Below, one piece after another: positions 14,507 through 56,096 of a stretch of 64,000 bases of DNA (its first letter is position 1; every line of letters begins with the position of its first letter). Source of the stretch: Escherichia coli (lineage in GTDB: Bacteria; Pseudomonadota; Gammaproteobacteria; Enterobacterales; Enterobacteriaceae); NCBI RefSeq assembly GCF_044324785.1, contig NZ_CP172127.1, one strand, 5' to 3'. A program made the translations under genes and the position numbers. Under the pieces are notes generated by a model. It was not told the origin of the DNA. It ran no database searches and saw nothing but the letters and a program-made list of their open reading frames with translations.

Positions 14507-14548
14507 TTTATTCTACAGGCCCACAGCAAGAGAGCCTGATAGTAACAG

Positions 14549-15832: not shown

Positions 15833-16952
15833 TTTTAGCTCCTTGAGCGGAATTAATCGATTTGATGACTATTCAGAAAATAATTAAGCGAACCGTTATT
15901 ACCAGTTCCACAATGTGCCATCTTCCAGTCGTGCGACGGGGAGATACGCCGGGTCATACGGATATTTCGCCGCCAGTTTCTCATCGAAAGAAATACCCAG
16001 CCCCGGTTCATCGCCTGGGTGCATATAACCTTCATCGAAGCGCCAGCTATGCGGGAAGACTTCAAGCATTTGTTCGGAATAGCCCATGTACTCCTGAACG
16101 CCAAAGTTTGGCACCCAGAGGTCAAAATGCAGCGCCGCCGCATGACAAACAGGCGATAAATCTGAAGGGCCATGCGAACCGGTACGTACCTGATAAAGCG
16201 ATGCAAAATCGGCAATCCGTCGCATCCCGGTAATGCCGCCTGCATGGGTAATCGTCGTGCGAATATAGTCAATCAGCTGCTCTTCGATTAACTGCTTGCA
16301 GTCCCAGATACTGTTAAACACTTCACCGACCGCAATCGGCGTCACAGTATGCTGGCGAATCAGACGAAAACATTCCTGGTTCTCGGCAGGCGTCGGATCT
16401 TCCATCCAGAACAGGCGGTAATCCTCAATGCTCTTCCCAAAGCGCGCCGCTTCGATAGGAGTCAGGCGATGGTGCATGTCATGCAACAGATGTTCGTTAA
16501 AACCGAACTTATTACGCACCGCTTCGAATAACTTCGGCGTAAAATCGAGATACTTTTCTGAAGACCACAACTGCTCTTCTGGCCACAGGCCTTTGGTTGC
16601 CGGTTCATACGCCAGTCCTTTGCCCTTCGCCAGGCCATAAGTGGTTTGCATACCCGGTACACCACACTGCACACGAATCGCCTTAAAGCCCATCTGCTGG
16701 TGCTTTGCATAGTCTTCAAGGACTTCATCAATCGTACGCCCGGTGGTGTGGCAATAAACCATCACGCCTTCACGAGAAGCACCACCAAGCAGTTGATACA
16801 ATGGCATATTTGCCGCTTTTGCTTTGATATCCCACAACGCCATATCAATGGCAGAAATGGCTGACATCGTGACGGGGCCACGTCGCCAGTAAGCACCGGT
16901 GATGCTGCCAACTTACTGATTTAGTGTATGATGGTGTTTTTGAGGTGCTCCA

Positions 16953-17228
16953 GTGGCTTCTGTTTCTATCAGCTGTCCCTCCTGTTCAGCTACTGACGGG
17001 GTGGTGCGTAACGGCAAAAGCACCGCCGGACATCAGCGCTATCTCTGCTCTCACTGCCGTAAAACATGGCAACTGCAGTTCACTTACACCGCTTCTCAAC
17101 CCGGTACGCACCAGAAAATCATTGATATGGCCATGAATGGCGTTGGATGCCGGGCAACTGCCCGCATTATGGGCGTTGGCCTCAACACGATTTTACGTCA
17201 CTTAAAAAACTCAGGCCGCAGTCGGTAA
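16953..17228 (+). CDS. insA: IS1 protein InsA (zinc-finger DNA-binding)
   Basis: 91 aa [43 protein letters not shown]... Confidence 0.95.
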
Positions 17229-17650
17229 CCTCGCGCATACAGCCGGGCAGTGACGTCATCGTCTGCGCGGAAATGGACGAACAGTGGGGCTATGTCGGGG
17301 CTAAATCGCGCCAGCGCTGGCTGTTTTACGCGTATGACAGTCTCCGGAAGACGGTTGTTGCGCACGTATTCGGTGAACGCACTATGGCGACGCTGGGGCG
17401 TCTTATGAGCCTGCTGTCACCCTTTGACGTGGTGATATGGATGACGGATGGCTGGCCGCTGTATGAATCCCGCCTGAAGGGAAAGCTGCACGTAATCAGC
17501 AAGCGATATACGCAGCGAATTGAGCGGCATAACCTGAATCTGAGGCAGCACCTGGCACGGCTGGGACGGAAGTCGCTGTCGTTTTCAAAATCGGTGGAGC
17601 TGCATGACAAAGTCATCGGGCATTATCTGAACATAAAACACTATCAATAA
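17147..17650 (+). CDS. insB: IS1 transposase InsB (expressed as InsAB' by -1 frameshift)
   Basis: 167 aa ...[41 protein letters not shown]... Confidence 0.93.
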
Positions 17651-18261
17651 GTTGGAGTCATTACCGTAAGCACCTTTATAAAAGAATTGCCAGATATCTT
17701 CGATACGGCTGGCATCGCGGCCAATTAATTGTGGACAAAGATGATCTTTCAGATAAGAAGCGACCGACAATTCGCGCCCATTTAACGTGGCATCTCCTAA
17801 TCCACAAAGTCCGCTTTCAGTGGTTATTTTAAGCGTAACGAAATTACGTCCTGGGCAAGTAACAAAAACATCTGCAGCAATAATTTTCATTATTGCAATC
17901 TCCTGTGTTGTAAATAGACGCTTCAAACTTAATTTTACGCCTACTACCATACAAGAGAGAAAGAGCGATTATTCAACCGTGATCACATTAAAAACAAAAA
18001 TTCCCACCGAGGAACAAGAATATCCTCAAATTTCATCCACACTATTAATTACTATTGTTAAAACAACACGTTAAATAATCACATAACAAATTCCTCTAAG
18101 GAAGAGAGTCATAACAATAACAAATGATAATCATATTTTACTTAATTCAATACGTATCGATATGTTTATTTTAAAAAGATTTTTCGGAATGAGAGATGAA
18201 AAGAAGATACACAAACAGGAAGAAATACGATTAATATTGGTCGCGGTAAGGGTAGCCGTTC

Positions 18262-18378
18262 CTCCCTTCCGCAACCCATTAACCCTTGAAGTCACAGTCT
18301 ATTTCAGGCATTTCTCAACTCAAAATAACGAAGGCCAATGTGAACTTTGTGGCTCTCCAGGATCCGCTTTGTTTTCCA
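18262..18378 (+). repeat. diverged partial copy of the oxyS 3' half including a terminator-like hairpin
   Basis: ttaacccttgaagtcac identical to oxyS; the following ~80 nt are about 80 percent identical (tttctcaactcaaaataacgaaggccaatgtgaactttgtggctctccaggatccgctttgtttt versus oxyS tttctcaactcgaataactaaagccaacgtgaacttttgcggatctccaggatccgctttttttt). Confidence 0.8.
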
Positions 18379-19857
18379 TCAAACAACGGAACTCAGCGCA
18401 CTGGCAACCTGTTTAAAGCGAGCAAACCGTCGCCTGAGCATGTGTGCTTTTTCTACATTCGGTTCAAGACGAATCACGTTGAGATGCGTGGCCTTCATGG
18501 CCTGTTTGAATCCAGAATAAGCCCCTCCTCCTACTGCCGCACACATTGCAGCCGCTCTACAACCTGACTGTTCAATATCGACAATTTCAAGAGGCATGTT
18601 GCTGGCATCACAAAACATCTGCATCCAGATTCTGGAATGCGTTGGCCCGCCAGAGAAACGAATCGTTTGCAATGACTTATCAATCTCAATAAGACGGTCC
18701 TGATGCAACAAATGAGAAAAGACAATGCCCTGATAAATCGCGTACACCAAATCTTCTCTTTTATGATGCCCACACAGCCCCAAAAATCCCCCGCTTAATG
18801 CCTCATGGTAATTCGAGCCAAACAACCACGGGAAAAAGAGAATATCATTCTGCTTCTCATACCCTCGTTCCACCCACTCATTAATCACCCGATAGCTGTC
18901 AGGAAGATCCGGTAAAAATTGCTGCAAGAACCATGTCAAATTACTGGCTGATGTAGGGCTTCCCTCATGGGCGAAAAATGTACCTGGAATGCTAAATTTC
19001 CCCCATACATAGGGATAATCAGAAGGAATAATGCGATCAAAGATACGCGTTGCAATTGACCAGGTGCCAGCAACCGCACTTAACGTTGTACTGTCATAGA
19101 TGCCAGAAGTGAGCGCCGCACCAACGACATCAAAAACACCACCAAAAACAGGCGTTCCGGCGAGAAGCCCACATTGGCTGGCTGCTTCAGATGTCACAAC
19201 CCCTGCTAAATCAGCGGAGCCAATAATATCGGGAACCTTACCCGCAACTTCCTTAATCTCAAATAGGCGAAAAAGTTCAGCATCATAAGCACTGGTATAT
19301 TGATTATAAAAATTACTGCCTGAAATATTGGTTTCTTCACAAGCCAGTTTGCCAGTAAGCCGTGAACGTATGTAATCATGAACCATCAAAATGGTTCCGA
19401 TGCGGCCATAATTGTCAGTCTCATGTTTTTTCAACCAATGCAATAGTGCTACAGGGTGCGATGGCCAGAGCTGTTGCAGACTACGGTGATAGCTTTCGCG
19501 GTCAATTCCTTGTTCTTTCCAGCTTGCAACCAGTTGTTGTGCGCGAGAATCAGAGGAAACAATGCCGTATCGTAAGGGCTTACCTTGCCGGTCGAGCAGG
19601 TACAAACCTTTACCATGAGCAGAAAAACTGATGCCATCAATCTGACTCGCAGTAATATTGTTCTCTGACATCGACAGTGAAATGACCTGGCACGTTACCT
19701 TCCATAACGCCTCCATGTCGCGTTCGCAAAAACCAGGACATGGGCTTAACAGAGGTAACACTTGCGAAGAGACACCTATTTCACGTCCTTCTGCCGTATA
19801 AATTCCCGCTTTGGTTTCTGTACCACCTAAATCGACACCAATAAAATACCGCTCCAT
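18379..19857 (-). CDS. FGGY-family carbohydrate kinase (xylulokinase/L-xylulokinase-like)
   Basis: 492 aa; MERYFIGVDLGGTETKAGIYTAEG N-terminal actin-fold kinase motif; last gene of the minus-strand operon. Confidence 0.82.
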   Translation of the reverse strand: MERYFIGVDLGGTETKAGIYTAEGREIGVSSQVLPLLSPCPGFCERDMEALWKVTCQVISLSMSENNITASQIDGISFSAHGKGLYLLDRQGKPLRYGIVSSDSRAQQLVASWKEQGIDRESYHRSLQQLWPSHPVALLHWLKKHETDNYGRIGTILMVHDYIRSRLTGKLACEETNISGSNFYNQYTSAYDAELFRLFEIKEVAGKVPDIIGSADLAGVVTSEAASQCGLLAGTPVFGGVFDVVGAALTSGIYDSTTLSAVAGTWSIATRIFDRIIPSDYPYVWGKFSIPGTFFAHEGSPTSASNLTWFLQQFLPDLPDSYRVINEWVERGYEKQNDILFFPWLFGSNYHEALSGGFLGLCGHHKREDLVYAIYQGIVFSHLLHQDRLIEIDKSLQTIRFSGGPTHSRIWMQMFCDASNMPLEIVDIEQSGCRAAAMCAAVGGGAYSGFKQAMKATHLNVIRLEPNVEKAHMLRRRFARFKQVASALSSVV

Positions 19858-19873
19858 GATCCCTCCTTAGTTT

Positions 19874-20737
19874 CTAAATATTATCCCAGCCGGCAAGGCG
19901 CATTTTCTCTTCAATCCATTGACGTGCATGAATAATTTCTAATAGAGGTTCCGTCGCTTTTTCTGTCCACATTTCTATCAGAAACGTTCCGCGATAATTA
20001 AGATTACGCAGAATCTTAAATAATTTAATAAAATCTACACACCCTTCACCAAAAGGAACGTCACGAAATTGCCCTGGAGAATCAGGCGTTACTGGGTACG
20101 TATCTTTAAGATGGATTGCGGCAATTCGATCAATCCCCTTTACCAGCTCACTTTCCAGTTCATTACCCCATGCGGTCAGATTGCCAACATCCGGATAAAC
20201 GGTAAACCAAGGGGAATTAATTTTTGTATCCAGGACTTTCCATTTACTAATAGAATTAATAAATGGCGTATCCATGATTTCTACAGCACACATAACTTGT
20301 GCCGCTGCGGCCTGTTCAGCTGTCCAGGCCATCGCATCTTCAAACCAGGCGATAGTTTCTTCATTCTGCGGCTCATAATAAACGTCATAGCCTGCCAGTT
20401 GGATTGTTCGAATCCCCAAATCCTGCGCCAGGCGTAACGCCTTCAACATAATCGTACGCGCCTGCTGACGAGTATCTCTATCATGGCTACCAAATGGAAA
20501 ACGCCGGTGAGCAGACAGGCACATTGTCGGAATACGGATCCCCGTTTGCTGAATGGCGCTAATAAGCTCCATACGCTCGGTGAGCGACCAGTCCAGGCGG
20601 GCGAGTCGTTCATCATTCTCATCTACCGACATCTCAACAAAATCAAAACCGCAAGATTTAGCCAGGGCTAGTTTCTCTACCCAACTGGTATTCCTGGGTA
20701 GCGCTTTTTCATAAATACCTAACGGGTGGCGTCGCAT
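19874..20737 (-). CDS. sugar-phosphate 3-epimerase, TIM-barrel (L-xylulose/L-ribulose-5-phosphate 3-epimerase UlaE/SgbU-like)
   Basis: 287 aa; LGIYEKALP...GFDFVEMSVDE.DERLARLDWS...CLSAHRRFPFGS...IQLAGYDVYYE...PDVGNL...FGEG.VDF motifs shared with UlaE/SgbU. Confidence 0.85.
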   Translation of the reverse strand: MRRHPLGIYEKALPRNTSWVEKLALAKSCGFDFVEMSVDENDERLARLDWSLTERMELISAIQQTGIRIPTMCLSAHRRFPFGSHDRDTRQQARTIMLKALRLAQDLGIRTIQLAGYDVYYEPQNEETIAWFEDAMAWTAEQAAAAQVMCAVEIMDTPFINSISKWKVLDTKINSPWFTVYPDVGNLTAWGNELESELVKGIDRIAAIHLKDTYPVTPDSPGQFRDVPFGEGCVDFIKLFKILRNLNYRGTFLIEMWTEKATEPLLEIIHARQWIEEKMRLAGWDNI

Positions 20738-21813
20738 TATTTTCCCTCACGAGTGATCAATTGTTGTTGAAAGATTTTCCGGCTCTTATTCATGTCACGC
20801 TGCAACTGCCATTTTTGTTTGATGAATTTAAATGCCAATGCGGCGATCAATGTGATCCCCCATACCGCCAGATTGAAATGCAAACTAATTCCCAACAGAC
20901 TAAGGCCGGTAGCAATAACCTGAAGCACAAGTAAGGCACAAAAAACATGACTGACTTTACCCGCCCCACCGAATGGATCTGTGCCTCCCAATACAATTGC
21001 AAGAACCGTCAAGAGCAAATAGGAATCGCCATAGCCCATACGCGCCGAATTAAATCGCGCGAGCATAATAAGACCTGCTAATACACACAACATGCTGGAT
21101 ATAGCATATATAGCAATTAATACGCGGTCGGTGCGAATACCGCTAAACCATGTGGCGTTAATATTACTGCCACACATATAAATCGTTTTTCCCGTACGGG
21201 TTTTGCCGAGGAACAGAGCTAAAGCAACGGTGGTGACGATAAAAATCATCATCGGTACTGGGATCCCCATGATAACTTCAGACCCAATACTGCGGACTAC
21301 TGGTGGCATACCACTTAAAGCTGCCCCCTTAGTCAGGTAAATACCGATACCACTAATAATGGTCATGCTACCCAATGTGACCAAAATAGGGTGAGCGCCT
21401 ATATGAGAAATAATTAACCCAGTAATAGCTCCAATGATGATGGCAATAAGCATCGCCCCGACAATAGCCAGGAAGAGCCAAAACAACTGGCTACCTGTAG
21501 ATGCATCTGCGGGTACATATTGAATCAACACCCAGGCCATAAACAGGCTGGTCAGATTCGCAGTACCGATGATTGCCAGATTAAGCCCCCCGCTCAACAT
21601 CGGTATAAACATCGCAAACGTGAGCAACCCAAGCTCTGGCAATTGAAATGCAATGCTCAGAAAAGTATTGTCGGTGAAAAAACGCCCCGGCATTGCCAGA
21701 CTAAATAACACCACCGCAATAAAACATATTGATAATAAGCCTGAACTGGTACCATCTAGTGGAAAAAATATCCGCTTGTTCATTTCGATCCTCCCGTTAG
21801 ACGAAACCAACAT
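20737..21813 (-). CDS. sugar ABC transporter permease (CUT2/RbsC-like)
   Basis: 358 aa, multi-pass membrane protein, in operon with the ATPase and binding protein. Confidence 0.8.
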   Translation of the reverse strand: MLVSSNGRIEMNKRIFFPLDGTSSGLLSICFIAVVLFSLAMPGRFFTDNTFLSIAFQLPELGLLTFAMFIPMLSGGLNLAIIGTANLTSLFMAWVLIQYVPADASTGSQLFWLFLAIVGAMLIAIIIGAITGLIISHIGAHPILVTLGSMTIISGIGIYLTKGAALSGMPPVVRSIGSEVIMGIPVPMMIFIVTTVALALFLGKTRTGKTIYMCGSNINATWFSGIRTDRVLIAIYAISSMLCVLAGLIMLARFNSARMGYGDSYLLLTVLAIVLGGTDPFGGAGKVSHVFCALLVLQVIATGLSLLGISLHFNLAVWGITLIAALAFKFIKQKWQLQRDMNKSRKIFQQQLITREGK

Positions 21814-22789
21814 CAGTTTCTTTACGCTTTTTGTAATGGGTCACACAAATCGCCGAGACAATAACCACCCCAATAACGATATTGACGAAATAACTCGAGA
21901 CACCAATCAAATTAAGGCCGTTTTTAAGAATACCGATAAGAAATACGCCCATAAGCGTACCAATGACCGTACCACGTCCGCCTGATAAACTGGCACCGCC
22001 CAATACCGCTGCAGCCAGCACATCCAACTCTCCGCCAACCAATGCATTCGGCACAACTTCACTCATACGGTAAGCTTGCAGCATTCCACCAATTGCTGCA
22101 GCGGCACCAAGATAACCGTAAGCAAACAGATAAATTAGCGACACCCGAATCCCAATACGTCTTGCTGATTCGGTATTCCCTCCCACGGCATAAAGCTGAC
22201 GCCCAATATGGGTTTTGTTCATTATCACCCACGTCAGAAATGCCATTCCCAGCATAACCACTAACGGTAATCCGATCTGGTAATCTTCTCCGCCAAATTC
22301 AAAACTCAGGAAAGAACGCTGCGTAATCCACCAATCCGGTAAATCGTAAATACTGTGACCATTAGTCAACCACATCAACATACCGAACAGTAACGACTGC
22401 ATACTAATCGTAATGATGATAGAAACGACATTAAGGTAATAAATAAGAATAGCGTTTATCAAACCAAAAATGATGCCAAAAAAAACAGCAAACACCAGGC
22501 AGAAAAATGGATTTGATAGCGTTTCATTAAGCAGTAACGACGCCACAACATATTGCACAACCGAAGCTACTGCTGCAAAAGAGATATCAATTCCGCCAGT
22601 AACCAATACGACAAATAATCCGAGGGCGAAAATACCCGTTACGGCATAACTCTCCGAGAGATCGAGCAAGTTCTGTATTGATAAAAACTCATCGCTCATG
22701 ATGGAAAAAAATACCAGCATGAGAACAATGACCCATCCTAACCAAGCTTCGACTGAACGAGGAAACCGCAGCCGCATAAAGCTAACCAT
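21797..22789 (-). CDS. sugar ABC transporter permease (CUT2/RbsC-like)
   Basis: 330 aa hydrophobic multi-pass protein; overlaps neighbouring genes by a few codons (translational coupling). Confidence 0.8.
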   Translation of the reverse strand: MVSFMRLRFPRSVEAWLGWVIVLMLVFFSIMSDEFLSIQNLLDLSESYAVTGIFALGLFVVLVTGGIDISFAAVASVVQYVVASLLLNETLSNPFFCLVFAVFFGIIFGLINAILIYYLNVVSIIITISMQSLLFGMLMWLTNGHSIYDLPDWWITQRSFLSFEFGGEDYQIGLPLVVMLGMAFLTWVIMNKTHIGRQLYAVGGNTESARRIGIRVSLIYLFAYGYLGAAAAIGGMLQAYRMSEVVPNALVGGELDVLAAAVLGGASLSGGRGTVIGTLMGVFLIGILKNGLNLIGVSSYFVNIVIGVVIVSAICVTHYKKRKETDVGFV

Positions 22790-24299
22790 TAATCACCTCC
22801 GCCAACTGCTGCTCGGTATAATTCGAAGGCAACAGCTCATGAATAATCTTTCCGCGCTTCATATGAAAAATACGATCGCAGTTATAATAAGCTTCTGGTG
22901 CTTCATCAGTAATTAATATCACTGAAATACCCACACCTGAAAGCCGATGAATAAGCTGGTAAATACTATCTTTTGCGCCAATATCTACACCTACCGTTGG
23001 CGCATCCAGAATTAAAACCTTAGGTCGTGTTAAAATCCATTTAGCCAGGACAACCTTTTGTTGATTGCCACCAGATAGCGTTGAAAGTGGATTATTTGGA
23101 TCGGTGACCTTAATATCCAAATCCTGGATCCACTCCTTGACTAAGGTTTCTTTTCGATTTTCATCAATAAACCCCGATGGCGTCTTTAAACGATCCAGAA
23201 TCGAGAGCACCATATTATCGCTGATAGATTGGGGTAATACGGCCCCCAGTGTCAGGCGATCTTCTGAAACATATGCTATTCCCAGTTTTACCGCATGCGT
23301 GTTGTCTTTAATTGTAACGGGCTTACCTTCAAGATAAATATCACCACTATCTGCTCGAGTAATACCGAAAAGACTCAATGCTAATTCGGTTCTCCCCGCA
23401 CCAAGTAAACCACACAATCCCAGAACCTCGCCTTGGTGTAGTTTTAGAGATACATCTTCAAATTGCCCTTTTCTGCATAATTTTTTTAGTTCAAGAACTA
23501 CTTTACCTTCAACGCTATTTGGTAGTTTTTTCTGGTGGACTATAGTTTTTCCGGTCATTAACTCAGTAATATCGCCTGGAGAAAGTTGATTGGCAGCCCA
23601 CGTTCCAATTATCTCTCCATCACGGATGACCGTAATTCGGTCTGAGATTTCCTTAACTTCATCAAGGCGGTGGCTAACAAAAACTACGGTAATATTTTTA
23701 TCGCGTAAGTAATTCACTGTGCGTAGTAATTGATTAACTTCAGTGCGCGTCAATGACGCCGTTGGCTCGTCCATGATGACTAACCGGGCATCGGCAATCA
23801 GAGCCCGGCAAATAGCGACCTGTTGGCGTTGTGCAATCGGCAAATGTTGTACTAACGCATCAGGATCGAGATTGAATTCCAGTTCCTGAATTATTTTCTG
23901 TGATACATCTCGAAGTTGTTTTTTTCTGTGCAGCCCTAAATATCCCTTCAGGTTGTATTCAAAAGCGATATTTTCAGCCACAGAAAGATTTGGGAATAAA
24001 GAAAGATCCTGATATATCACCTGAATACCCAGTTCCCGAGCTTTATCAGGAGAAAGACGAGTCCAGGACTTACCATCTATAATAATTTCACTTCCCGAAT
24101 CAGGAACATAAACACCACACAGCGTTTTGATCAGAGTACTTTTACCACACCCATTCGCACCAGCAAGACAATGAACCTCACCTTTATTTAAGGTAAGATT
24201 GATATTTTTTAGAGCCCTATGGCCACCGAAACTTTTCGTTAGTGACCTTAGCGTCACTAATGGTTGCTCCGCATTCTTCTCTATAATATGAGGCATCAT
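22782..24299 (-). CDS. sugar ABC transporter ATP-binding protein with two fused ABC domains (RbsA/MglA/AraG type)
   Basis: 505 aa; Walker A GANGCGKST in domain 1, second P-loop GLLGAGRTE, ABC signature LSGGNQQK. Confidence 0.88.
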   Translation of the reverse strand: MMPHIIEKNAEQPLVTLRSLTKSFGGHRALKNINLTLNKGEVHCLAGANGCGKSTLIKTLCGVYVPDSGSEIIIDGKSWTRLSPDKARELGIQVIYQDLSLFPNLSVAENIAFEYNLKGYLGLHRKKQLRDVSQKIIQELEFNLDPDALVQHLPIAQRQQVAICRALIADARLVIMDEPTASLTRTEVNQLLRTVNYLRDKNITVVFVSHRLDEVKEISDRITVIRDGEIIGTWAANQLSPGDITELMTGKTIVHQKKLPNSVEGKVVLELKKLCRKGQFEDVSLKLHQGEVLGLCGLLGAGRTELALSLFGITRADSGDIYLEGKPVTIKDNTHAVKLGIAYVSEDRLTLGAVLPQSISDNMVLSILDRLKTPSGFIDENRKETLVKEWIQDLDIKVTDPNNPLSTLSGGNQQKVVLAKWILTRPKVLILDAPTVGVDIGAKDSIYQLIHRLSGVGISVILITDEAPEAYYNCDRIFHMKRGKIIHELLPSNYTEQQLAEVING

Positions 24300-24362
24300 A
24301 ATATTCCTGAATACGACTAAAGGAATTCCGGGTCAAATTTGACCCGGTGATTTACGGTAAAA

Positions 24363-25367
24363 TTACAAGCCTAACTTCACTAAATGTCGTGTATTTTCAA
24401 GATCGAGCTTTTCTGGATTATCACTATAAATAGTGTTGTTATTAACCTTGATCTCGCCCATATCACCGATTTTTACACCGTCTTTAATAGGTTCACCGTT
24501 CATCATTGCCGTCGCAACCTGGACAAAAACCTTACCCGCAATCATAGGGTTTGAAATATATCCCCCATCAATGGCGCCTTTTTCGAGTAGCTTAATTCCC
24601 TGACCTGGAGTGAAGGTTCCAAAAACGCAAATTGCGTCATTTTTCTTCCGCTTATCAATAGCACGCCCCGCACCAATTGGTCCTTGTGAACCAAATGACA
24701 TAATGCCTTTAAGATCTTTATATTTAGACATTAAATCGTTCGTCGTGCGCATTGAATCATCCACCGATTCAGCAACACCAAAACGATCTTCAACCAACGT
24801 CATATTTGGATAATGTTCTTTTTGATAAGCAATCGCGGCATTGGCCCAGTCATTTACCAAAGGCACGGTCAGACTGCCGACAAACATGGCGTATTTACCT
24901 TCTTCGCCCATGCACTTCGCCATATCTTTCATATGATTGGCACCCATTGTCTGGGTATTTAACAACTCAAAATCCCAATCTGCATTTTTTTGATCTGGTG
25001 ATTCGTGGGTAATAACTTTAATACCGGCTTCTTGTGCACGCTTAAGTACAGGTTCAAGAACCTTTGCATCGTTAGGAACAACCCCAATAACATCCACTTT
25101 TCGTGCAATTAAATCTTCAATCGCCCGAACCTGTTCAGCTGGATCTGCCGTTGTAGGGCCGACCTGCCATGCATCAACCCCCAATAGTTTTCCTTCATCT
25201 TTAATGCCTTGTTCCATCACATTAAACCAGGGAATGCCACCGACTTTTACTACTACCCCCATCGTAAAAGGTTTATTCGCTTTTTGTGATGTTACAGTCT
25301 GATCAGCCCATGCAGCAGTGGAAGATAATACGGTAGCAATAAGGCAGGGTAAGATTAATTTTTTCAT
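24363..25367 (-). CDS. periplasmic sugar-binding protein of ABC transporter (RbsB/LsrB-like)
   Basis: 334 aa with N-terminal signal peptide MKKLILPCLIATVLSSTAAWA; first gene of operon. Confidence 0.82.
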   Translation of the reverse strand: MKKLILPCLIATVLSSTAAWADQTVTSQKANKPFTMGVVVKVGGIPWFNVMEQGIKDEGKLLGVDAWQVGPTTADPAEQVRAIEDLIARKVDVIGVVPNDAKVLEPVLKRAQEAGIKVITHESPDQKNADWDFELLNTQTMGANHMKDMAKCMGEEGKYAMFVGSLTVPLVNDWANAAIAYQKEHYPNMTLVEDRFGVAESVDDSMRTTNDLMSKYKDLKGIMSFGSQGPIGAGRAIDKRKKNDAICVFGTFTPGQGIKLLEKGAIDGGYISNPMIAGKVFVQVATAMMNGEPIKDGVKIGDMGEIKVNNNTIYSDNPEKLDLENTRHLVKLGL

Positions 25368-25489
25368 CGTAATTTCCTTAAGAAATAGTTCAGGTGTCAG
25401 GAAAACTCGATATAATATCGACCTGACTATTTATATAATTTATAATCCCTTAGGCATTGATTAATAATTTAGACAATAAATAATGCCTA

Positions 25490-26299
25490 TTATTTATCAA
25501 CCTCCACAATGTTTAATTGTGGAAATTGTGTTCGATACCGAGTATCTGTACAAACATTAGTCACCAGAATATCGATTTCATCCAGCGTGCATATTTTACT
25601 AAATGCATACTGTTCAAACTTACTGGAGTCGACCAGCAATATTTTTTGTCCTGACACCTGAAGCATCACCTGTTTAAGTCTGGCATTAATTTCACTGCCA
25701 TCGCGGACACCATTCCCCAGATTCAACCCCTGGCATGAAAAGAAAAAACTGTTGATTTGAAAATTTCGGATCGCCCCCTCTGCAACCGGGCCATGAAAAT
25801 CATCATGTCGCTCAGAATACTCACCACCGATACCAATAATTCGAACTCGATCACGGCAAGCCAACGCCTGAATTATCCGTAATGAATTTGTAACTACAGT
25901 AACATCTATATCGGGAATTTGACGAGCTAAAAACCAACAAGTACTACTGTTATCCATTAAAATACAATCACCAGGGTGAATAAATTGCAATGCGGCCTTC
26001 GCAATTCTGGCTTTTATATCAGGATTTTCTTCAGTCCGTTTACGGAATGATTCCGCACGATCGATACTATTATCTTGCCACGCATTATCGGCGAGCATAA
26101 CCGGAGCGCTATCAGATGAATCCAGAGCGACCGCGCCACCAAAGCTACGGATTAACTTTTTGTTGCGCTCCAGTACCGTTAAATCCCGACGAATTGTCTC
26201 AGGAGACGCTTTAAATAATCGTGATAATTCTGTTACCTGTACAGCACCTTGTTTTTGTACATGTGCGCATATCATTTTATGGCGCTCTGCCTGCAACAT
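25490..26299 (-). CDS. DeoR-family transcriptional regulator
   Basis: 269 aa; N-terminal HTH (VTELSRLFKASPETIRRDL) and C-terminal DeoR sugar-phosphate-binding domain; upstream of the ABC operon on the same strand. Confidence 0.85.
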   Translation of the reverse strand: MLQAERHKMICAHVQKQGAVQVTELSRLFKASPETIRRDLTVLERNKKLIRSFGGAVALDSSDSAPVMLADNAWQDNSIDRAESFRKRTEENPDIKARIAKAALQFIHPGDCILMDNSSTCWFLARQIPDIDVTVVTNSLRIIQALACRDRVRIIGIGGEYSERHDDFHGPVAEGAIRNFQINSFFFSCQGLNLGNGVRDGSEINARLKQVMLQVSGQKILLVDSSKFEQYAFSKICTLDEIDILVTNVCTDTRYRTQFPQLNIVEVDK

Positions 26300-26752
26300 A
26301 GTATCGGTCCGTTATTATCAAATTAGCATGCTTATATAATTAACTGTTCCCTCATAAAATAAAGTGATAGGAATCAAGATTCATTTTATAAATATAATCG
26401 CAAACAGAAATGGTGATCTTTACCACAAATTAAATTGAGAATATTCTACTATTGGACATTTTTTTGAGATATACGTCACTAAATAAGCTTTATTCTGTCA
26501 CCTGACGAAAAATTTAAATGCAAAAACAAAAATAATCGGGCATAGCAATCTCTTCCATTCATGACCGAATACGCCCGAATAAAACCGTTTACGCCCACTT
26601 ACCCTCTTTCATTGCCTTCTTACATGCCTTGAATATTTTACATTTCTTATATTCAGCGTAATTTAGGCAACATAATTTACGAGCAAAAATAGCCAAAACC
26701 CAAAAGTTAAAGTTTATTTATATAATACATACAGATTATCGTGGAGTTAAAA

Positions 26753-27435
26753 ATGGATACGCTAAAGGAAAAAGTTCTTGCTGCGAATTTATCACTACCC
26801 CTTCATCAGTTAGTGACGTTTACCTGGGGAAATGTTAGCGGTATTGATCGCGAAAAAGGTGTCATGGTTATTAAACCTTCTGGGGTCGAATACAGCCAAA
26901 TGGGCAGGTGGTAGTGGATTTACAAAGTGGTGAAGTTATTGATGGACACAGGAAACCCTCTTCAGACACAGATACTCATCTGGCGCTATACCGTGCTTTC
27001 CCGGATATTGGAGGTATCGTTCATACCCATTCCCGACACGCCACAATATGGGCTCAGGCCGGAAAAGATCTCACGGCCTTTGGGACAACCCATGCAGATT
27101 ATTTCTACGGCACTATCCCCTGTACACGCCCCATGAAGGATGACGAAATTAATGGACAATATGAATATGAAACGGGGCGAGTGATTATTGAAACGTTCAG
27201 GCAACGAGAAATATCTCCCGCTGACATTCCGGCTGTTTTAGTAAACAGTCATGGCCCCTTTGCCTGGGGAACTGATCCCGCGAACGCCGTGCATAACGCC
27301 GTTGTACTTGAAGAAATCGCCTATATGAATCTCTTTACACAACAGCTACACCCCCATCTTACGGCTATTCAACAGCCTCTACTGGATAAGCATTTTTTAC
27401 GCAAGCATGGTGCCAATGCTTATTACGGGCAGTAA
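26753..27435 (+). pseudogene. L-ribulose-5-phosphate 4-epimerase (AraD/SgbE/UlaF-like), frameshifted near codon 50
   Basis: ATG at 26753 with GGAG RBS gives [53 protein letters not shown] then stop at 26912; +1 frame continues [52 protein letters not shown]...HGANAYYGQ, strongly AraD-like. Confidence 0.8.
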
Positions 27436-27484
27436 CCCTCTAAGCATGGCCTGGCGTTTTGCCAGGCCACGAATCGCCCAGGAC

Positions 27485-42927: not shown

Positions 42928-43235
42928 AAGCTGCTCCCGGGCTTGCGAAAGCCCATGTCCATATTTTTGATGGAAGAAACAATAGGCAATCGCAGGCGGA
43001 GCAAACAGTGGATAAAAAGGCCATTTACTGGACTTTTGTAATATCAGTACAAAAATGCGATCCGCCTCATAACTTGCGATAATCCGGAAGTACGCCGCAA
43101 AACGGCGTCTTGTGAGACGCGTCGCAAATTGACGGTTACATTACATTTGTCCAGCTTTTGGCAGATTTGTCACATGGCAGGCCGTTGTCGTGCGCTCTTA
43201 TCCTGTAAACAGAAAACCGTACCGGGAGAAAGGCA

Positions 43236-45737
43236 ATGGCCCTGATTGTGGAATTTATTTGTGAGCTACCTAACGGCGTCCATGCGCGTCCGGCAAGCCA
43301 CGTTGAAACGCTGTGTAATACTTTTTCATCACAAATTGAGTGGCATAACCTGCGCACTGACCGCAAGGGCAACGCCAAAAGCGCCCTTGCGCTGATTGGC
43401 ACCGATACGCTGGTGGGCGATAACTGCCAGTTGCTGATTTCCGGGGCCGACGAACAGGAAGCGTACCAGCGTTTAAGCCAATGGCTGCGCGATGAATTCC
43501 CCCACTGCGACGCACCGCTGGCGGAAGTTAAATCTGACGAGCTGGAGCCGCTGCCGGTTTCACTGACCAACCTGAATCCGCGAATTATCCGCGCCCGCAC
43601 CGTGTGCAGCGGTAGCGCAGGCGGCATTCTGACGCCGATCTCTTCTTTAGATCTCAATGCGCTGGGTAATCTTCCCGCTGCCAAAGGCGTTGACGCCGAG
43701 CAATCCGCGCTGGAAAACGGCCTGACGCTGGTACTGAAAAACATTGAGTTTCGTCTGCTGGATAGTGACGGTGCCACCAGCGCGATTCTGGAAGCGCACC
43801 GCTCCCTGGCTGGCGATACTTCCCTGCGCGAACATTTACTGGCAGGCGTCAGCGCCGGATTAAGCTGCGCCGAAGCAATTGTTGCCAGCGCGAATCACTT
43901 TTGTGAAGAGTTCACCCGTTCCAGCAGCAGCTACCTGCAAGAACGTGCCCTGGACGTACGCGACGTCTGCTTCCAGTTACTCCAGCAAATCTACGGTGAG
44001 CAACGCTTCCCGGCACCGGGCAAACTGACGCAGCCCGCCATTTGTATGGCTGATGAACTGACCCCCAGCCAGTTCCTCGAACTGGATAAAAATCACCTCA
44101 AAGGATTGTTGCTCAAAAGCGGCGGCACCACCTCACATACGGTGATCCTTGCCCGTTCGTTCAACATTCCGACGCTGGTTGGTGTGGATATTGATGCCCT
44201 TACCCCGTGGCAACATCAAACGATTTATATCGACGGCAACGCCGGAGCGATTGTGGTTGAGCCAGGGGAAGCCGTAGCCCGTTATTATCAGCAAGAAGCC
44301 CGCGTACAGGATGCCCTGCGTGAGCAACAGCGTGTCTGGCTGACCCAACAAGCCCGTACCGCTGACGGTATCCGCATTGAAATTGCTGCTAACATCGCTC
44401 ACTCCGTGGAAGCGCAGGCCGCATTCGGCAATGGTGCGGAAGGCGTTGGTTTGTTCCGCACTGAAATGCTCTATATGGATCGCACCAGCGCACCGGGCGA
44501 AAGCGAGTTGTATAACATTTTTTGTCAGGCGCTGGAGTCCGCCAACGGGCGCAGCATTATTGTGCGCACTATGGACATTGGCGGTGACAAACCCGTTGAT
44601 TATCTGAACATTCCCGCAGAGGCAAACCCGTTCCTCGGTTATCGCGCCGTGCGTATTTATGAAGAGTACGCGTCGTTATTTACCACACAACTACGGTCGA
44701 TTCTCCGTGCCTCCGCTCACGGCAGCCTGAAAATCATGATCCCGATGATCTCTTCAATGGAAGAGATCTTATGGGTGAAAGAAAAACTGGCGGAAGCCAA
44801 ACAGCAACTGCGTAACGAACACATTCCGTTTGATGAGAAGATCCAGCTCGGCATCATGCTGGAAGTGCCGTCGGTGATGTTCATCATCGATCAATGCTGT
44901 GAAGAGATTGATTTCTTTAGTATTGGTAGTAATGACCTGACGCAATATCTGCTGGCAGTGGATCGCGATAACGCTAAGGTTACTCGTCACTATAACAGCC
45001 TGAATCCAGCATTCTTGCGGGCGCTCGATTACGCCGTGCAGGCGGTGCATCGCCAGGGCAAATGGATTGGTCTGTGCGGTGAACTGGGAGCGAAAGGTTC
45101 CGTGCTGCCATTGCTGGTCGGTTTAGGGCTGGATGAACTCAGCATGAGCGCACCATCAATTCCGGCGGCGAAAGCGCGAATGGCGCAACTTGATAGCCGT
45201 GAGTGCCGCCAGTTGCTCAACCAGGCAATGGCCTGCCGTACTTCGCTGGAAGTGGAACACCTGCTGGCACAATTCCGCATGACCCAACAGGACGCACCAC
45301 TGGTCACCGCCGAGTGCATCACGCTGGAAAGCGACTGGCGCAGCAAAGAAGAAGTGCTCAAAGGCATGACCGATAACCTGCTGCTGGCAGGGCGCTGCCG
45401 CTATCCGCGTAAACTGGAAGCCGACTTGTGGGCGCGCGAGGCCGTTTTCTCTACCGGTCTGGGCTTTAGTTTTGCCATTCCACACAGCAAATCAGAACAC
45501 ATTGAGCAATCCACCATCAGCGTAGCGCGTCTGCAAGCGCCGGTGCGCTGGGGCGATGATGAAGCGCAATTCATCATTATGTTAACCCTGAACAAACACG
45601 CTGCGGGCGATCAGCATATGCGCATTTTCTCGCGCCTCGCTCGCCGCATCATGCACGAAGAATTCCGTAACGCGCTGGTTAACGCCGCCTCTGCCGACGC
45701 TATCGCCAGCCTGCTGCAACATGAACTGGAACTGTAA
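43236..45737 (+). CDS. ptsA: multidomain PTS protein PtsA/FrwA (HPr-like - Enzyme I - EIIA)
   Basis: 833 aa; N-terminal HPr-like domain (NGVHARPAS), central Enzyme I PEP-utilising domain, C-terminal EIIA-Fru-like domain. Confidence 0.93.
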
Positions 45738-52980: not shown

Positions 52981-53279
52981 AAAGCTAAAGGGCGTCAACC
53001 GAAAAATGACCAATGATAGTGAGGAAAAATCAGGGAAGATGAAAAAAACTCATCTTAATTAGAGGCGATAAGAGATTTCTCTATAGCGCAATCCATCTCG
53101 CACGTTTTGACTAATATTCTGACAACACAGCGACACCTGGGCTAATTCGAAAAACAACCTCCTGCCACCGGATGGTGATGCTAAGGCATCTGATTCGGCC
53201 TGCGCTCTCACGTAGGCCGAATAATGGATCTGCAAAATCAACTGGTAGCAAACAGATGAATCAACTTAATACATACTTT

Positions 53280-54833
53280 TTACTTGATATCCTTCACACG
53301 CATACCGTTGATCTGTTCATCCGTGATGGTATTGCCCGCTTTGAAGTAATCAACCACGGCGTGATAAACGTAATAACCGCCCGTTGTGTTACGCGCTCTC
53401 CCTTCGGTGAAGGCGCTAAAACCATCGCCACCATCAGCAAGGAAACTCTGAGTAGCAATGTGGTAAACCGTCGCATCTTCAATGGGTTTGCCATTCAGAG
53501 TCAGCGAGATAACCCGCTGACCAACCGGCTTACTGCTGTCGTACTTCATTTCCAGGCCTTTCGATACCTGTAAAACGCCATTACTTAAACTTGCGCCGTG
53601 TTCCATCAAACTGCGTAATTGTTTACCCGTGAGATCCATCGTCACCAGTTCGTTGGGGAACGGGAAGGTACTGATGACGCCGCCCATCGTAATCGCCCCT
53701 GCGGGGATCTCATTGCGAATACCGCCAGAGTTGGTTAAAGCCAATTGAGTGTTTTTACCCGCCGCTACCAGTAAAGCGTCCGCCGCCAGGTTCCCCAGGG
53801 ATGCCGATTCACCATAGGCACGTTTTAATTCAACCGGCGATTTCGCGACCGTTTGTTGCACCACTTCATCAAGCTTTTTATTCCAGCCGTCGATCACCTG
53901 TTTCGTTTGCGGATCGGGCTTCCACTCGTCGGCGTAAATGGTTTTAAGCTCGAAGTTTTTCACCGTAAAATCATGCGGCTTCTCTTTGTAGTCGAGAACC
54001 AGTTTGCCCACATCAATCCCGCCACTGTCAGTGGAAAGGATGAGCGTATTGCCGACTTTAATCGGTTCCGGCGTACCCACATGTGCATGTCCGGTGATCA
54101 AAATATCCAGCCCTTTCACCTGACTTGCCGTCTGAATATCTTTATCCAGTGCGCGACGCACATCAGTCCCTCCCATACTGGACTGGCGGGCCGGAACACC
54201 TTCGTGGATCAGGGCGACGGTCAAATCAACCTTGCCTTTGAGTTCATCGATATAACGTTGTAGCCATTTAATTTCATCACGCGCTTCAATACCCACTCGC
54301 GTGGCAGCAGATACTGTGTCATTAAAGGCAAATACACCGTGCAAACCTATAACGCCTATTTTCACACCGTCTTTTTCGATGATGGTATAGGGCTTATCCC
54401 AGAATGATTTACTGCTGTTCTGATAAAAAACATTGCCCTGCACAATCGGGAATTTTGCCTGACTCAACTGTAATAATGTGTTGTCCCAGCCGTGGTCAAA
54501 TTCATGGTTACCCATCGTGACAGCATCGAATGGCATGGTATTCATAATATCGATAATAGCCTTGCCTTTGGTCAGGCTGCTGATATATGGCCCGGTAAAA
54601 TAGTCGCCCGCATCAAAAAACCATGTCGCCTTATTTTTTGCTTTTTCTTGCTTAACCAGCGTAGTGATATTTGCCCAGCCGCCAATATCCCGTTTACCGT
54701 CCGCAATCCACGGCACTTTATAAGGCTCTACATGTGCATGGAGGTCGTTGGTATAAATAATGGTGACATCTTTAGCGCAAGCCCAGAATGGCAGTGTTAA
54801 TGCGATACCCGCAGCAAGTATTTTAATTTTCAT
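53280..54833 (-). CDS. secreted bifunctional metallophosphatase / 5'-nucleotidase family protein (UshA/CpdB-like)
   Basis: 517 aa; signal peptide [20 protein letters not shown]; calcineurin-like phosphoesterase motifs (TNDLHAH, GDYFTG, MGNHEFD, GHAH) plus a C-terminal 5'-nucleotidase substrate-binding domain. Confidence 0.85.
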
Positions 54834-54892
54834 AAACAGTCCCTTTCAGTGAGATAAAGGATTGCTACATTACGTTCTGAAAGAGTTATTTA

Positions 54893-54908
54893 TGTGAGAG
54901 TAATCACA
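54893..54908. promoter_or_regulatory. perfect consensus CRP (cAMP receptor protein) binding site in divergent promoter region
   Basis: TGTGAgagtaaTCACA: both consensus half-sites with 6-bp spacer, roughly 60 bp from each of the two divergent start codons. Confidence 0.7.
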
Positions 54909-54965
54909 TCCACAGGGGAGCGTTGCCGGACAAAATCAACGACCATGTGAAATCGTTGGTGATAT

Positions 54966-56096
54966 ATGTCGACTCTGTTTACGATTAATGCCTGCAAGTC
55001 GTTTGGTTGCCGTAATTTAGGGCAGCCAACATCGACAGATTATAGCTGGCCCGACTATCGACTGGGTTATCCGGCACTGCACTGTCGGGCATGTGGCAGT
55101 TACCCGCCGTTGTTTGACGAGCAACAATTTCGTGACTGGTTGACAGTTCACTTATCTACTTTTGCAACAGAGAAAGGCCATTTTTGCCCGGTATGTTATG
55201 GTACAGATACGATTTGTTATGGTCACAATCCACAGGGTTCGCAACGCATTCAATGCCGTAACTGCAAAAAAGTATGGACACCCAAACAATATCAGAAAGA
55301 AATAACGACTCCCGAAATAATCGAAACGGTTGCTTTTCTCGTGCCATTTCAGGGAGTCAGCAGCGGGCAGAAACTGTATGTTTTAATCAGTTTTGATGCT
55401 CTTCGCGGTAATATTCTTCATCTTTCTACTAATTACACGCAGCATCAGGCTGGAGAAAGTCTGCATTATCGATACAGAGGGAATGCAGAACCAGAGTTAC
55501 ACGAGAGTAATATTGTACAACGCGTTGATATGCGGGAAGCACAATTTCTACGCCGCAGTCAGTTTGATGAAATTCAGTATGGCAGCGCAGCGCTCAAACG
55601 CAATGCTAAAGGTGTTATTCTGCGTCCGGTTATCACTGCACACGGGCATTTCAGAGTACTGAATATTTTATTCCCTACAGTAAAAACACATGTAATTTCA
55701 CACGAGTGTTTTTTAAGAGGTGCCATTATTACGGCATGGGCTGATCTGTTTCGCCAACAGCAAGGTGAGATTTGGTTTATTGAAGAGGAAATAGCTGACG
55801 ATACCGATAATATGCCCTGGAGTTTTCAGGGAACAACTTATCACGGCTGGTGGAAAAATCAGTGGCAACTTTGGGGTCAGGGCAAAAATCGTAAAATGGT
55901 ATGTGCATTAACGGGCGGAAAGAGTAGCAAAGCAGAAATGCTCTCTTTAGCAACCAGCAGACATTTTATCGACTGGCTACATAAACAAGCAGTATTTACT
56001 CACAGCACCCCGCTTTCCGCAGGGCGCGTTACGCAAATACTGCTTTCTCTGGCTCAGGATTACAACAACTGCGCCAGGCGGTTAATATCCGACTGA
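54966..56096 (+). CDS. hypothetical Cys-rich protein (N-terminal paired C-x4-C / C-x2-C zinc-ribbon-like motifs)
   Basis: 376 aa ORF; N-terminus contains C..x4..C, C..x2..C, C..x2..C, C..x2..C pairs (ACKSFGC, CRAC, CPVC, CRNC); no signal peptide; 3' end overlaps convergent metL stop by 37 bp; function not recognisable. Confidence 0.6.
   Translation: MSTLFTINACKSFGCRNLGQPTSTDYSWPDYRLGYPALHCRACGSYPPLFDEQQFRDWLTVHLSTFATEKGHFCPVCYGTDTICYGHNPQGSQRIQCRNCKKVWTPKQYQKEITTPEIIETVAFLVPFQGVSSGQKLYVLISFDALRGNILHLSTNYTQHQAGESLHYRYRGNAEPELHESNIVQRVDMREAQFLRRSQFDEIQYGSAALKRNAKGVILRPVITAHGHFRVLNILFPTVKTHVISHECFLRGAIITAWADLFRQQQGEIWFIEEEIADDTDNMPWSFQGTTYHGWWKNQWQLWGQGKNRKMVCALTGGKSSKAEMLSLATSRHFIDWLHKQAVFTHSTPLSAGRVTQILLSLAQDYNNCARRLISD

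What the first reader, a model, noticed from the sequence alone, without database searches (positions are those of the whole stretch)
54893..54908. Perfect CRP consensus palindrome centred in the divergent promoter of the two inserted genes
TGTGA-gagtaa-TCACA matches both CRP half-sites exactly, about 60 bp from each start codon. This predicts strong cAMP-CRP control of one or both genes, consistent with a nucleotide-scavenging role for the phosphoesterase.
Basis: seen in the sequence. Interest (0 to 1): 0.45.

Follow-up and report, generated by a model that had tools for sequence, protein, structure and literature searches.

The report
Conserved CRP site between nucleotidase and transposase-like genes
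The palindrome is almost certainly a real binding site for the sugar-starvation regulator CRP that switches on a periplasmic nucleotide-scavenging enzyme, ordinary in kind, but it lies at a fixed distance from a second conserved DNA motif next to a transposase-derived gene of unknown role.

Summary
TGTGAgagtaaTCACA is at 54893-54908. It is the only exact match in the 64 kb window (0.02 expected). It sits in the middle of the 132-bp gap between a periplasmic 5'-nucleotidase gene (53280-54833, minus strand) and a 376-aa zinc-ribbon gene I call hyp (54966-56096, plus strand).

In 26 related loci from about ten enterobacterial genera, the two half-sites sit at the same position and are about 97% conserved. 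The 6-bp spacer varies freely, and no change is compensatory. That is the footprint of a dimeric protein site, not of a hairpin. Conserved -10-like hexamers lie 28.5 and 30.5 bp either side of the centre, which fits one CRP dimer serving two back-to-back class II promoters.

The gene context supports nucleotide scavenging. Larger versions of the locus add Tsx channels and further nucleotidases. Regulation itself is untested, and the only CRP ChIP-seq strain I could check lacks the locus.

First, hyp is homologous to IS1 InsA and has a transposase/integrase-like fold. Its distant relatives in Proteus, Vibrio, Psychromonas and Salmonella almost always sit beside nucleoside or nucleotide scavenging genes. 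Second, the motif GTTG(G/A)T starts exactly 54.5 bp from the CRP centre in nearly all of these loci.

Verdict: a new member of a known kind, with an unexplained composite element attached.

The parts
54893..54908 (.). CRP-binding site, TGTGA-N6-TCACA, centre 54900.5
   Evidence: Read directly. Unique in the window. Scores 15.7 bits on a matrix built from ChIP-seq sites. Half-sites conserved and spacer free in 26 loci.
54867..54872 (-). Proposed -10 hexamer of the nucleotidase promoter (TAATGT on the minus strand). It predicts a transcription start near 54860 and CRP at about -40.5.
   Evidence: TAAnGT, TAACTT or TAAAAT is present in 25 of 26 loci at the same alignment columns. The spacing to the CRP site has no gaps. 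The start site is inferred, not measured.
54931..54936 (+). Proposed -10 hexamer of the hyp promoter (CAAAAT). It predicts a transcription start near 54943 and CRP at about -42.5.
   Evidence: CAAAAT in 22 of 26 loci and CAGAAT in 2. The start site is inferred.
54870..54883 (.). Conserved block TTACGTTCTGAAAG between the CRP site and the nucleotidase -10; role unknown
   Evidence: Invariant or nearly invariant columns in alignment A1.
54935..54960 (.). Imperfect inverted repeat ATCAACGA-N10-TCGTTGGT. Its right arm holds the GTTGGT motif, which starts 54.5 bp from the CRP centre.
   Evidence: The right arm is the most conserved stretch of A1. Changes in the left arm are one-sided only. GTTG lies at +54.5 in 15 of 16 anchored loci, including distant ones.
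53280..54833 (-). Gene for a 517-aa secreted metallophosphatase/5'-nucleotidase with an N-terminal signal peptide
   Evidence: Pfam Metallophos plus 5_nucleotid_C. Below the cut-off of every named NCBIfam equivalog. Matches PDB 3IVD/3IVE 'Nucleotidase' over residues 19-517 with E = 0.
54966..56096 (+). Gene hyp: a 376-aa cytoplasmic protein with two Cys4 zinc ribbons and a C-terminal RNase-H-like transposase/integrase fold
53048..56058 (.). Variable 3011-bp segment that replaces 197 bp of K-12 between metF and metL
   Evidence: blastn against K-12. Present in full in 1837 of 5426 complete E. coli genomes. G+C is 0.43-0.51 against 0.55-0.60 in metL. No terminal inverted repeats.

Best explanation
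The palindrome is a high-affinity binding site for the cAMP-CRP dimer in the shared control region of two divergently transcribed genes. When glucose is scarce and cAMP rises, CRP binds at 54893-54908. The site lies where a -35 element would be for two back-to-back promoters. One reads leftward into the periplasmic 5'-nucleotidase (proposed -10 TAATGT at 54872-54867, start near 54860, CRP at about -40.5). The other reads rightward into hyp (proposed -10 CAAAAT at 54931-54936, start near 54943, CRP at about -42.5). CRP would therefore activate by the class II mechanism, making direct contact with RNA polymerase bound next to it. The physiological sense is carbon, phosphate and nucleoside scavenging. 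The secreted enzyme removes phosphate from external nucleotides so that the nucleosides can be taken up. In larger versions of the locus, a Tsx-type nucleoside channel and further nucleotidases belong to the same transcription units. Shown here: the site itself, its conservation pattern, its fixed spacing to the conserved hexamers, and the gene context. Inferred: CRP binding, the start sites, activation rather than repression, and whether both promoters or only one respond.
For: The core is exact, unique in 64 kb, and the top matrix score in the window. All 8 sites with this exact core in the H10407 ChIP-seq table are bound in vivo. In 26 loci chosen through the hyp protein, not through the site, the half-site columns have a mean majority frequency of 0.965, against 0.60 for the spacer and 0.79 for the rest of the intergenic region. 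The two G's that CRP reads most strictly (from established CRP-DNA structures; my knowledge) are invariant, and TCAC of the right half is invariant. Variants such as TGCGA and TGTGC are one-sided and never compensated. There are no gaps between alignment columns 29 and 130, so spacing is fixed. The -10-like hexamers are conserved at 28.5 and 30.5 bp from the centre; class II needs about 29.5. In related loci the same site is the best or second-best CRP match in about 11 kb. In B2 E. coli, the extra nucleotidase-nucleotidase-tsx unit has its own 14.5-bit CRP-like site. Distant hyp homologues next to nupC-, deoB/deoD/nupG- and nucleotidase-type genes again have the locus-top CRP site in the control region, at 16.9, 16.5, 15.4, 17.7 and 13.1 bits. 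K-12-type nucleoside genes tsx, nupC, nupG, cdd, udp and deoC are all CRP ChIP-seq targets (PMC4287617 Table 1). A single CRP site serving divergent promoters has precedents (PMC3105977).
Against: There are no binding, start-site or expression data for this locus; H10407 lacks it, and no paper in the library treats it. By matrix score alone, 10.5% of shuffled 64-kb windows reach 15.7 bits. Both -10 candidates are weak: 3/6 and 4/6 matches to TATAAT. The generic promoter scan did not pick them. In distant homologues the -10-like element on the hyp side lies about 13-16 bp further from the CRP site, which would put CRP near -55, not a classical activating position. So CRP may act mainly on the scavenging gene. 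Two polymerases cannot both use one CRP dimer in class II mode at the same time.
Confidence: 0.78

Rival explanations
1. The CRP site is one half of a composite control element. A second factor, most plausibly the hyp protein itself, binds the conserved GTTG(G/A)T motif 55 bp away. It would autoregulate hyp and modulate CRP-dependent activation of the scavenging genes, in the way CytR modulates CRP at nucleoside genes. This extends the best explanation rather than excluding it.
For: GTTG starts exactly 54.5 bp from the CRP centre in the window, in all 25 related loci, and in 8 of 9 loci of distant homologues; the ninth is off by 1 bp. The binomial probability is 1.7e-18 at the local GTTG frequency. 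The element keeps its place even where hyp lies downstream of the nucleotidase (L045, L049). In the window it is half of an inverted repeat. The hyp family is homologous to IS1 InsA, covering the zinc ribbon and, in the longer members, the helix-turn-helix region. InsA is known to bind IS1 ends and repress its own promoter (my knowledge). hyp homologues sit beside scavenging genes in 9 of 10 informative cases.
Against: There is no evidence that hyp binds DNA. The 376-aa form in this window lacks the segment that aligns with the InsA helix-turn-helix, yet its GTTGGT motif is still invariant. The motif could instead be a feature of the start site or leader. Its resemblance to IS1 ends is only a few bases.
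Confidence: 0.3
2. CRP binds, but it controls only one of the two genes, or it represses one of them. The other promoter would be independent of CRP.
For: One dimer cannot serve two class II polymerases at once. In distant loci the hyp-side -10-like hexamer sits at 43.5-48.5 bp from the centre, which is poor phasing for CRP. A survey of K-12 calls it rare for a single regulator to control both of two divergently aligned promoters, while listing 11 cases with a single CRP site (PMC3105977).
Against: In the window group both sides have conserved hexamers at near-ideal class II distance. Single-site divergent activation is documented.
Confidence: 0.25
3. The palindrome is a chance match, or a fossil with no present function.
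For: The matrix score is reached in 10.5% of shuffled windows.
Against: The exact core is expected 0.02 times per window. The half-sites are conserved across genera while the spacer drifts. Position and spacing are fixed.
Confidence: 0.03
4. The inverted repeat works as an RNA or DNA hairpin, or is read by a protein other than CRP.
For: It can form a 6-bp stem of -5.7 kcal/mol.
Against: The fold is not better than shuffles (z = -1.6). There are no compensatory changes and 7 unpaired cells. No Rfam family matches. The conserved letters are exactly those of the CRP consensus.
Confidence: 0.03

Closest known systems
Class II CRP-dependent promoters (galP1, melAB type; CRP centred near -41.5)
   Same: Consensus half-sites with a 6-bp spacer. 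The site occupies the -35 position. -10-like hexamers lie about 29.5 bp from the centre.
   Different: Start sites are not mapped. Both hexamers are weak. One site appears to serve two opposed promoters symmetrically.
Divergent promoter pairs that share one CRP site (11 K-12 cases listed by Shimada et al. 2011, PMC3105977; the model study of El-Robh and Busby 2002 is cited there)
   Same: A single CRP site lies in a short spacer between divergently transcribed genes.
   Different: This pair is in an accessory locus absent from K-12. The predicted geometry is class II on both sides, with starts only about 83 bp apart.
CRP/CytR-controlled nucleoside uptake and catabolism genes (tsx, nupG, nupC, cdd, udp, deo)
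   Same: The physiological theme is the same, and so is CRP dependence: these genes are ChIP-seq targets. A second conserved element lies at a fixed distance from the CRP site.
   Different: There is no second CRP site about 52-53 bp away and no conserved CytR octamer. The associated protein is not a LacI-family repressor.
IS1 InsA, the zinc-ribbon plus helix-turn-helix protein that binds the IS1 ends
   Same: The hyp family aligns with InsA residues 4-85 (probability 96.9%, E 2e-10). A conserved DNA motif lies just upstream of the gene, as the IS1 end lies upstream of insA.
   Different: hyp appears to be a resident chromosomal gene at conserved loci; copy number was not counted formally. There are no terminal inverted repeats. 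It shows no sequence similarity to InsB. The form in this window lacks the helix-turn-helix segment. No canonical DDE triad is evident.

Membership tests
CRP-binding site | Two half-sites, TGTGA and TCACA, separated by 6 bp | tested here: met
   10 of 10 core positions match. Scores 15.7 bits on a matrix from 107 ChIP-seq sites.
CRP-binding site | Conservation of the half-sites, especially the two G's, but not of the spacer, in orthologous regions | tested here: met
   Majority frequency is 0.965 for half-sites against 0.60 for the spacer. G64, G66 and T74-C77 are invariant in 26 loci.
CRP-binding site | Occupancy by cAMP-CRP in vitro or in vivo | not testable with these tools
   The only ChIP-seq data set read (H10407) comes from a strain without the locus.
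Class II CRP-dependent promoter | Site centred near -41.5 relative to the transcription start | tested here: inconclusive
   Conserved -10-like hexamers predict -40.5 and -42.5, but no start site has been measured.
Class II CRP-dependent promoter | Expression depends on crp and cya | not testable with these tools
   No expression data were found.
CytR-CRP co-regulated promoter | Tandem CRP sites about 52-53 bp apart (feature recalled from the literature) | tested here: not met
   The next best sites in the locus score 11 bits or less and lie elsewhere. The 16-mer centred 53 bp away (TGTGAAATCGTTGGTG) has no second half-site, and its TGTGA is not conserved.
CytR-CRP co-regulated promoter | Repeats of the CytR octamer GTTGCATT (consensus recalled) | tested here: not met
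   No match with 1 mismatch or fewer in the window. There are isolated single matches in 4 of 26 loci, at different positions.
IS1-type insertion sequence | Terminal inverted repeats and multiple mobile copies | tested here: not met
   There is no inverted repeat of 8 bp or more at the ends of the segment. The gene sits at the same chromosomal site across genera.
IS1-type insertion sequence | InsA-like N-terminal zinc ribbon | tested here: met
   hhalign E 2e-10. Pfam Zn_ribbon_InsA in 14 of 18 members; one member (L031) is above the gathering score, at 27.9 against 26.1 bits.
IS1-type insertion sequence | InsB-type DDE catalytic domain | tested here: inconclusive

The most novel reading that the evidence does not exclude
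hyp and its relatives are a family of domesticated IS1-like transposase proteins. They have become dedicated partners, probably DNA-binding regulators, of nucleotide and nucleoside scavenging genes in Enterobacterales, Vibrionales and relatives. They would act through a composite control element in which a GTTG(G/A)T motif is held exactly 54.5 bp from a CRP site. That would be a previously undescribed counterpart of the CytR-CRP system, built from a transposase.
Probability: 0.3. Interest if true: 0.65.

Novelty: new member of a known kind. Interest (0 to 1): 0.42.

Why it matters
The CRP site itself adds one well-supported accessory-genome target to the CRP regulon. It links a structurally solved but functionally unstudied periplasmic nucleotidase (PDB 3IVD/3IVE) to carbon-starvation control. 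About a third of complete E. coli genomes carry the locus, including ExPEC strains, where it is expanded with a Tsx-like channel.

The larger point is the neighbour. A transposase-derived protein family is persistently coupled to nucleoside-scavenging genes. A DNA motif is locked at one distance from the CRP site across orders of Gammaproteobacteria. If the protein binds that motif, this would be a clear bacterial case of a transposase recruited as a metabolic regulator, and it is easy to test.

Tried and rejected
- **CytR co-regulation:** no conserved GTTGCATT octamer and no tandem CRP site.
- **Hairpin or known RNA:** no covariation, folding no better than shuffles, no Rfam family.
- **Published CRP ChIP-seq:** the H10407 table was read, but that strain has metL and metF adjacent, without the locus.
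- **Literature:** searches for the locus, for c4898, for 3IVD, and for CRP regulon plus nucleotidase found only an annotation-level mention of the metL..metF region in APEC BEN2908 (PMC12928451).
- **Mobile element:** no terminal inverted repeats.
- **Anti-phage defence:** no PADLOC hits.
- **First AlphaFold run:** 18 close sequences gave pLDDT 46 and was discarded. Only the 40-sequence alignment worked.
- **Blocked searches:** afdb50 was unavailable.
- **Class I reading of the hyp promoter:** the hexamer TGAAAT at 54948-54953 would put CRP near -60. I rejected it for this window because many E. coli-type loci have G at the key -11 position and no usable -35.
- **Generic promoter scan:** it found only a site inside the nucleotidase coding region.
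- **Leader ORF at the conserved TTG:** it is in frame with hyp in some loci and not in others, so I did not adopt it.

Full report
**The observation**

Window 54893-54908 reads TGTGA GAGTAA TCACA. It is the only exact match to TGTGA-N6-TCACA in the 64 kb, where dinucleotide-preserving shuffles give 0.02 on average. Looser matches show no excess: 25 found against 26 expected with up to 2 mismatches.

I built a weight matrix from the 107 sixteen-mers in Table 1 of the CRP ChIP-seq study of ETEC H10407 (PMC4287617). The site scores 15.7 bits. That is the best score in the window and would rank 21st of the 107 bound sites. However, 10.5% of shuffled 64-kb sequences reach this score, because the spacer is not the preferred one. 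Eight sites in that table have the same perfect core, and all are bound in vivo.

The site is centred at 54900.5 in the 132-bp gap between two divergent ORFs.

**The two genes and their setting**

The leftward gene (53280-54833, minus strand) encodes a 517-aa protein. It has a signal peptide and the Metallophos and 5_nucleotid_C domains. It falls below the cut-off of every named NCBIfam equivalog, including UshA, CpdB and NadN. It matches PDB 3IVD/3IVE, deposited as 'Nucleotidase', over residues 19-517 with E = 0. I recall these as a structural-genomics entry for CFT073 c4898 with bound uridine or cytidine, but I could not verify this.

The rightward gene (54966-56096), which I call hyp, encodes a 376-aa protein. 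Public records name it only 'cytoplasmic protein'.

The pair lies between metF and metL. Compared with K-12, window 53048-56058 (3011 bp) replaces 197 bp. The full segment is present in 1837 of 5426 complete E. coli genomes, and its G+C is lower than that of metL. It has no terminal inverted repeats.

The same position is occupied in Citrobacter, Klebsiella, Pseudocitrobacter and Salmonella enterica subsp. arizonae. In those genera the nucleotidase is 88-91% identical to the one here, while MetL and MetF are 91-97% identical. The segment therefore looks old and repeatedly lost, rather than freshly inserted. Other genomes carry a second copy of the pair at other sites, for example near kdsA.

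**Conservation test for the site**

A scan of one genome per species with the hyp protein returned 30 loci. Wherever the upstream DNA was present, the nucleotidase and hyp genes were divergent, about 132 bp apart.

I aligned 26 of these intergenic regions.
- The ten half-site columns have a mean majority frequency of 0.965.
- The six spacer columns have 0.60.
- The rest of the region has 0.79.

Both G's of TGTGA, and TCAC of the other half, are invariant. The variants are TGCGA in Enterobacter and TGTGC in three loci. They are one-sided, with no compensatory change in any sequence. Folding of the palindrome is no better than shuffles, and no Rfam family matches.

This is the signature of a symmetric dimeric protein reading two half-sites. 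The letters kept are those of the CRP consensus. There is no gap between alignment columns 29 and 130, so all spacings are fixed. In nearly every related locus, this site is the best or second-best CRP match in about 11 kb.

**Likely mechanism**

Two hexamers are conserved at symmetric distances from the site.
- On the minus strand, TAATGT (54872-54867) takes the form TAAnGT, TAACTT or TAAAAT in 25 of 26 loci.
- On the plus strand, CAAAAT (54931-54936) is present in 22 of 26 loci.

They begin 28.5 and 30.5 bp from the centre of the site. From established knowledge of CRP promoters, class II activation places the site near -41.5, which is 29.5 bp from the first base of the -10. The hexamers therefore predict starts near 54860 and 54943, with CRP at about -40.5 and -42.5.

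Downstream of the predicted starts lie plausible ribosome-binding sequences: AAGGGA (54845-54840, minus strand) and GGTGAT (54958-54963).

One CRP dimer serving divergent promoters is documented. Shimada et al. list 11 such K-12 pairs and cite the model study of El-Robh and Busby (PMC3105977). The start sites, activation, and the response of both promoters are inferences.

**Gene context and the scavenging idea**

In B2 E. coli (UM146), the locus reads metF, nucleotidase, then divergently hyp, nucleotidase, nucleotidase, Tsx-like channel, then metL. The same region is described by annotation only for APEC BEN2908 (PMC12928451). The extra unit has its own 14.5-bit CRP-like site.

In Enterobacter and others, a second nucleotidase and a Tsx-family channel follow the first nucleotidase on the same strand, separated by short gaps.

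The K-12 nucleoside genes tsx, nupC, nupG, cdd, udp and deoC are all in the CRP ChIP-seq table.

Direct evidence is lacking. H10407 has metL and metF adjacent, as in K-12, and I found no paper on regulation of this locus.

**What hyp is**

The protein has eight invariant cysteines, which form two Cys4 ribbons. The second ribbon gives weak hits to the IS1/IS1595 and InsA zinc-ribbon models.

A profile search of 1.84 billion representative proteins found 181 relatives, many of them 400-530 aa long and only 17-40% identical. With these in the alignment, AlphaFold gave a confident model (pLDDT 93.8, pTM 0.93).

Profile comparison shows homology to IS1 InsA over residues 4-85 (probability 96.9%, E 2e-10). 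The segment that matches the InsA helix-turn-helix is present in the long homologues and absent from the 376-aa form in this window. There is no sequence similarity to InsB. Only E247 among the candidate acidic residues is kept across the wider family.

The protein evolves fast. It is 58-63% identical between E. coli and Citrobacter or Klebsiella. It is only 77% identical between this window and UM146, where the nucleotidase is 97.9% identical. That comparison also shows a recombination break inside the gene near 55300. It matches no known defence-system model.

**Distant relatives keep the same company**

I looked up where twelve distant homologues are encoded. Two contigs were too short to judge, and one homologue sits next to a ferritin gene. 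The other nine neighbour scavenging genes:

| Neighbouring genes | Homologues |
|---|---|
| NupC-type transporter plus nucleoside phosphorylase | 1 |
| DeoB-like, nucleoside phosphorylase and NupG-like genes | 1 |
| 5'-nucleotidase | 4 |
| Porin, class B acid phosphatase and class II cyclic-nucleotide phosphodiesterase | 1 |
| Tsx plus a sulfatase/phosphodiesterase-type enzyme | 2 |

Source names place them in Proteus, Vibrio, Psychromonas, Atlantibacter and Salmonella. Some are auto-annotated as 'IS1 family transposase'.

In these loci, the best CRP match again lies in the control region. Scores are 16.9, 16.5 (a perfect core), 15.4, 17.7 (a perfect core), 13.1 and 12.2 bits.

**An unexpected composite element**

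When all loci are anchored on the CRP site, GTTG begins exactly 54.5 bp from the centre. This holds in the window, in all 25 related loci, and in 8 of 9 loci of distant homologues; the ninth is off by one base. At the local GTTG frequency of 0.0046, this has a binomial probability of 1.7e-18. That figure assumes independence, and common descent weakens it, although the surrounding sequence can no longer be aligned.

In the two loci where hyp lies downstream of the nucleotidase, the motif is still present, on the side of the CRP site that faces away from the nucleotidase. So it belongs to the control region and not merely to the hyp leader.

In the window it forms the right arm of ATCAACGA-N10-TCGTTGGT (54935-54960). 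The left arm varies without compensation.

IS1 ends contain CCAACTT and begin GGT(G/A)AT. The resemblance is short and may be chance.

A second block, TTACGTTCTGAAAG (54870-54883), is invariant in the nucleotidase-linked loci and is also unexplained.

**Judgement**

In kind it is an ordinary, previously undescribed member of the CRP regulon with a neat double class II geometry.

The interest lies next door. A transposase-derived protein family is persistently coupled to nucleoside and nucleotide scavenging genes, and a motif is locked at one distance from the CRP site. I put about 0.3 on the reading that this is a new regulatory partnership with CRP.

Noticed in passing
window 14510-27483: A segment of about 13 kb is absent from ETEC H10407 between argH and oxyR. 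It encodes an MFS transporter, an enolase-superfamily enzyme, an FGGY sugar kinase, a xylose-isomerase-like TIM-barrel protein, an ABC sugar transporter, a DeoR regulator and a class II aldolase. Three CRP-like sites of 10.7-11.8 bits lie at 26363, 26412 and 26465, upstream of the DeoR gene.
   Followed up: partly
window 43056-43275: TGCGATCCGCCTCATA at 43056 is identical to the CRP site reported by ChIP-seq for ptsA/frwC in H10407 (PMC4287617 Table 1). Two further CRP-like sites lie at 43111 (12.9 bits) and 43260 (11.9 bits).
   Followed up: no
window 54950-54960 and 54743-54752: The conserved hyp-leader block AAATCGTTGGT is complementary over 8 nt to the nucleotidase mRNA where it encodes the catalytic motif T-N-D. 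In L009 and L011 the full 10-mer AAATCGTTGG recurs inside the second nucleotidase gene at the same motif. This could be chance, or a hint of RNA pairing.
   Followed up: no
window about 55300, compared with L034 (E. coli UM146): DNA identity between this window and a B2 strain is about 95% through the nucleotidase, the intergenic region and the first 110 codons of hyp. It then falls to 70-75% for the rest of hyp. This suggests a recombination break after the zinc-ribbon part, linked to the extra nucleotidase/Tsx genes downstream.
   Followed up: partly
window 56060-56096: The last 12 codons of hyp overlap the 3' end of metL on the opposite strand by 37 bp. Homology to K-12 resumes at 56059, so the C-terminal tail of hyp is encoded by the complement of the metL coding sequence.
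   Followed up: no
L034:9561-9576 (E. coli UM146): A second CRP-like site, TGTTACTAAGATCACA (14.5 bits), lies in the 233-bp gap upstream of the nucleotidase-nucleotidase-tsx unit. It is followed by TTCTGAA at about the same distance as the TTCTGAA in the window's conserved block.
   Followed up: partly
window 54834-54872, minus strand: The predicted nucleotidase leader can pair CCUUU with AAAGG across its ribosome-binding site (-8.7 kcal/mol, z = -1.7, not significant).
   Followed up: no
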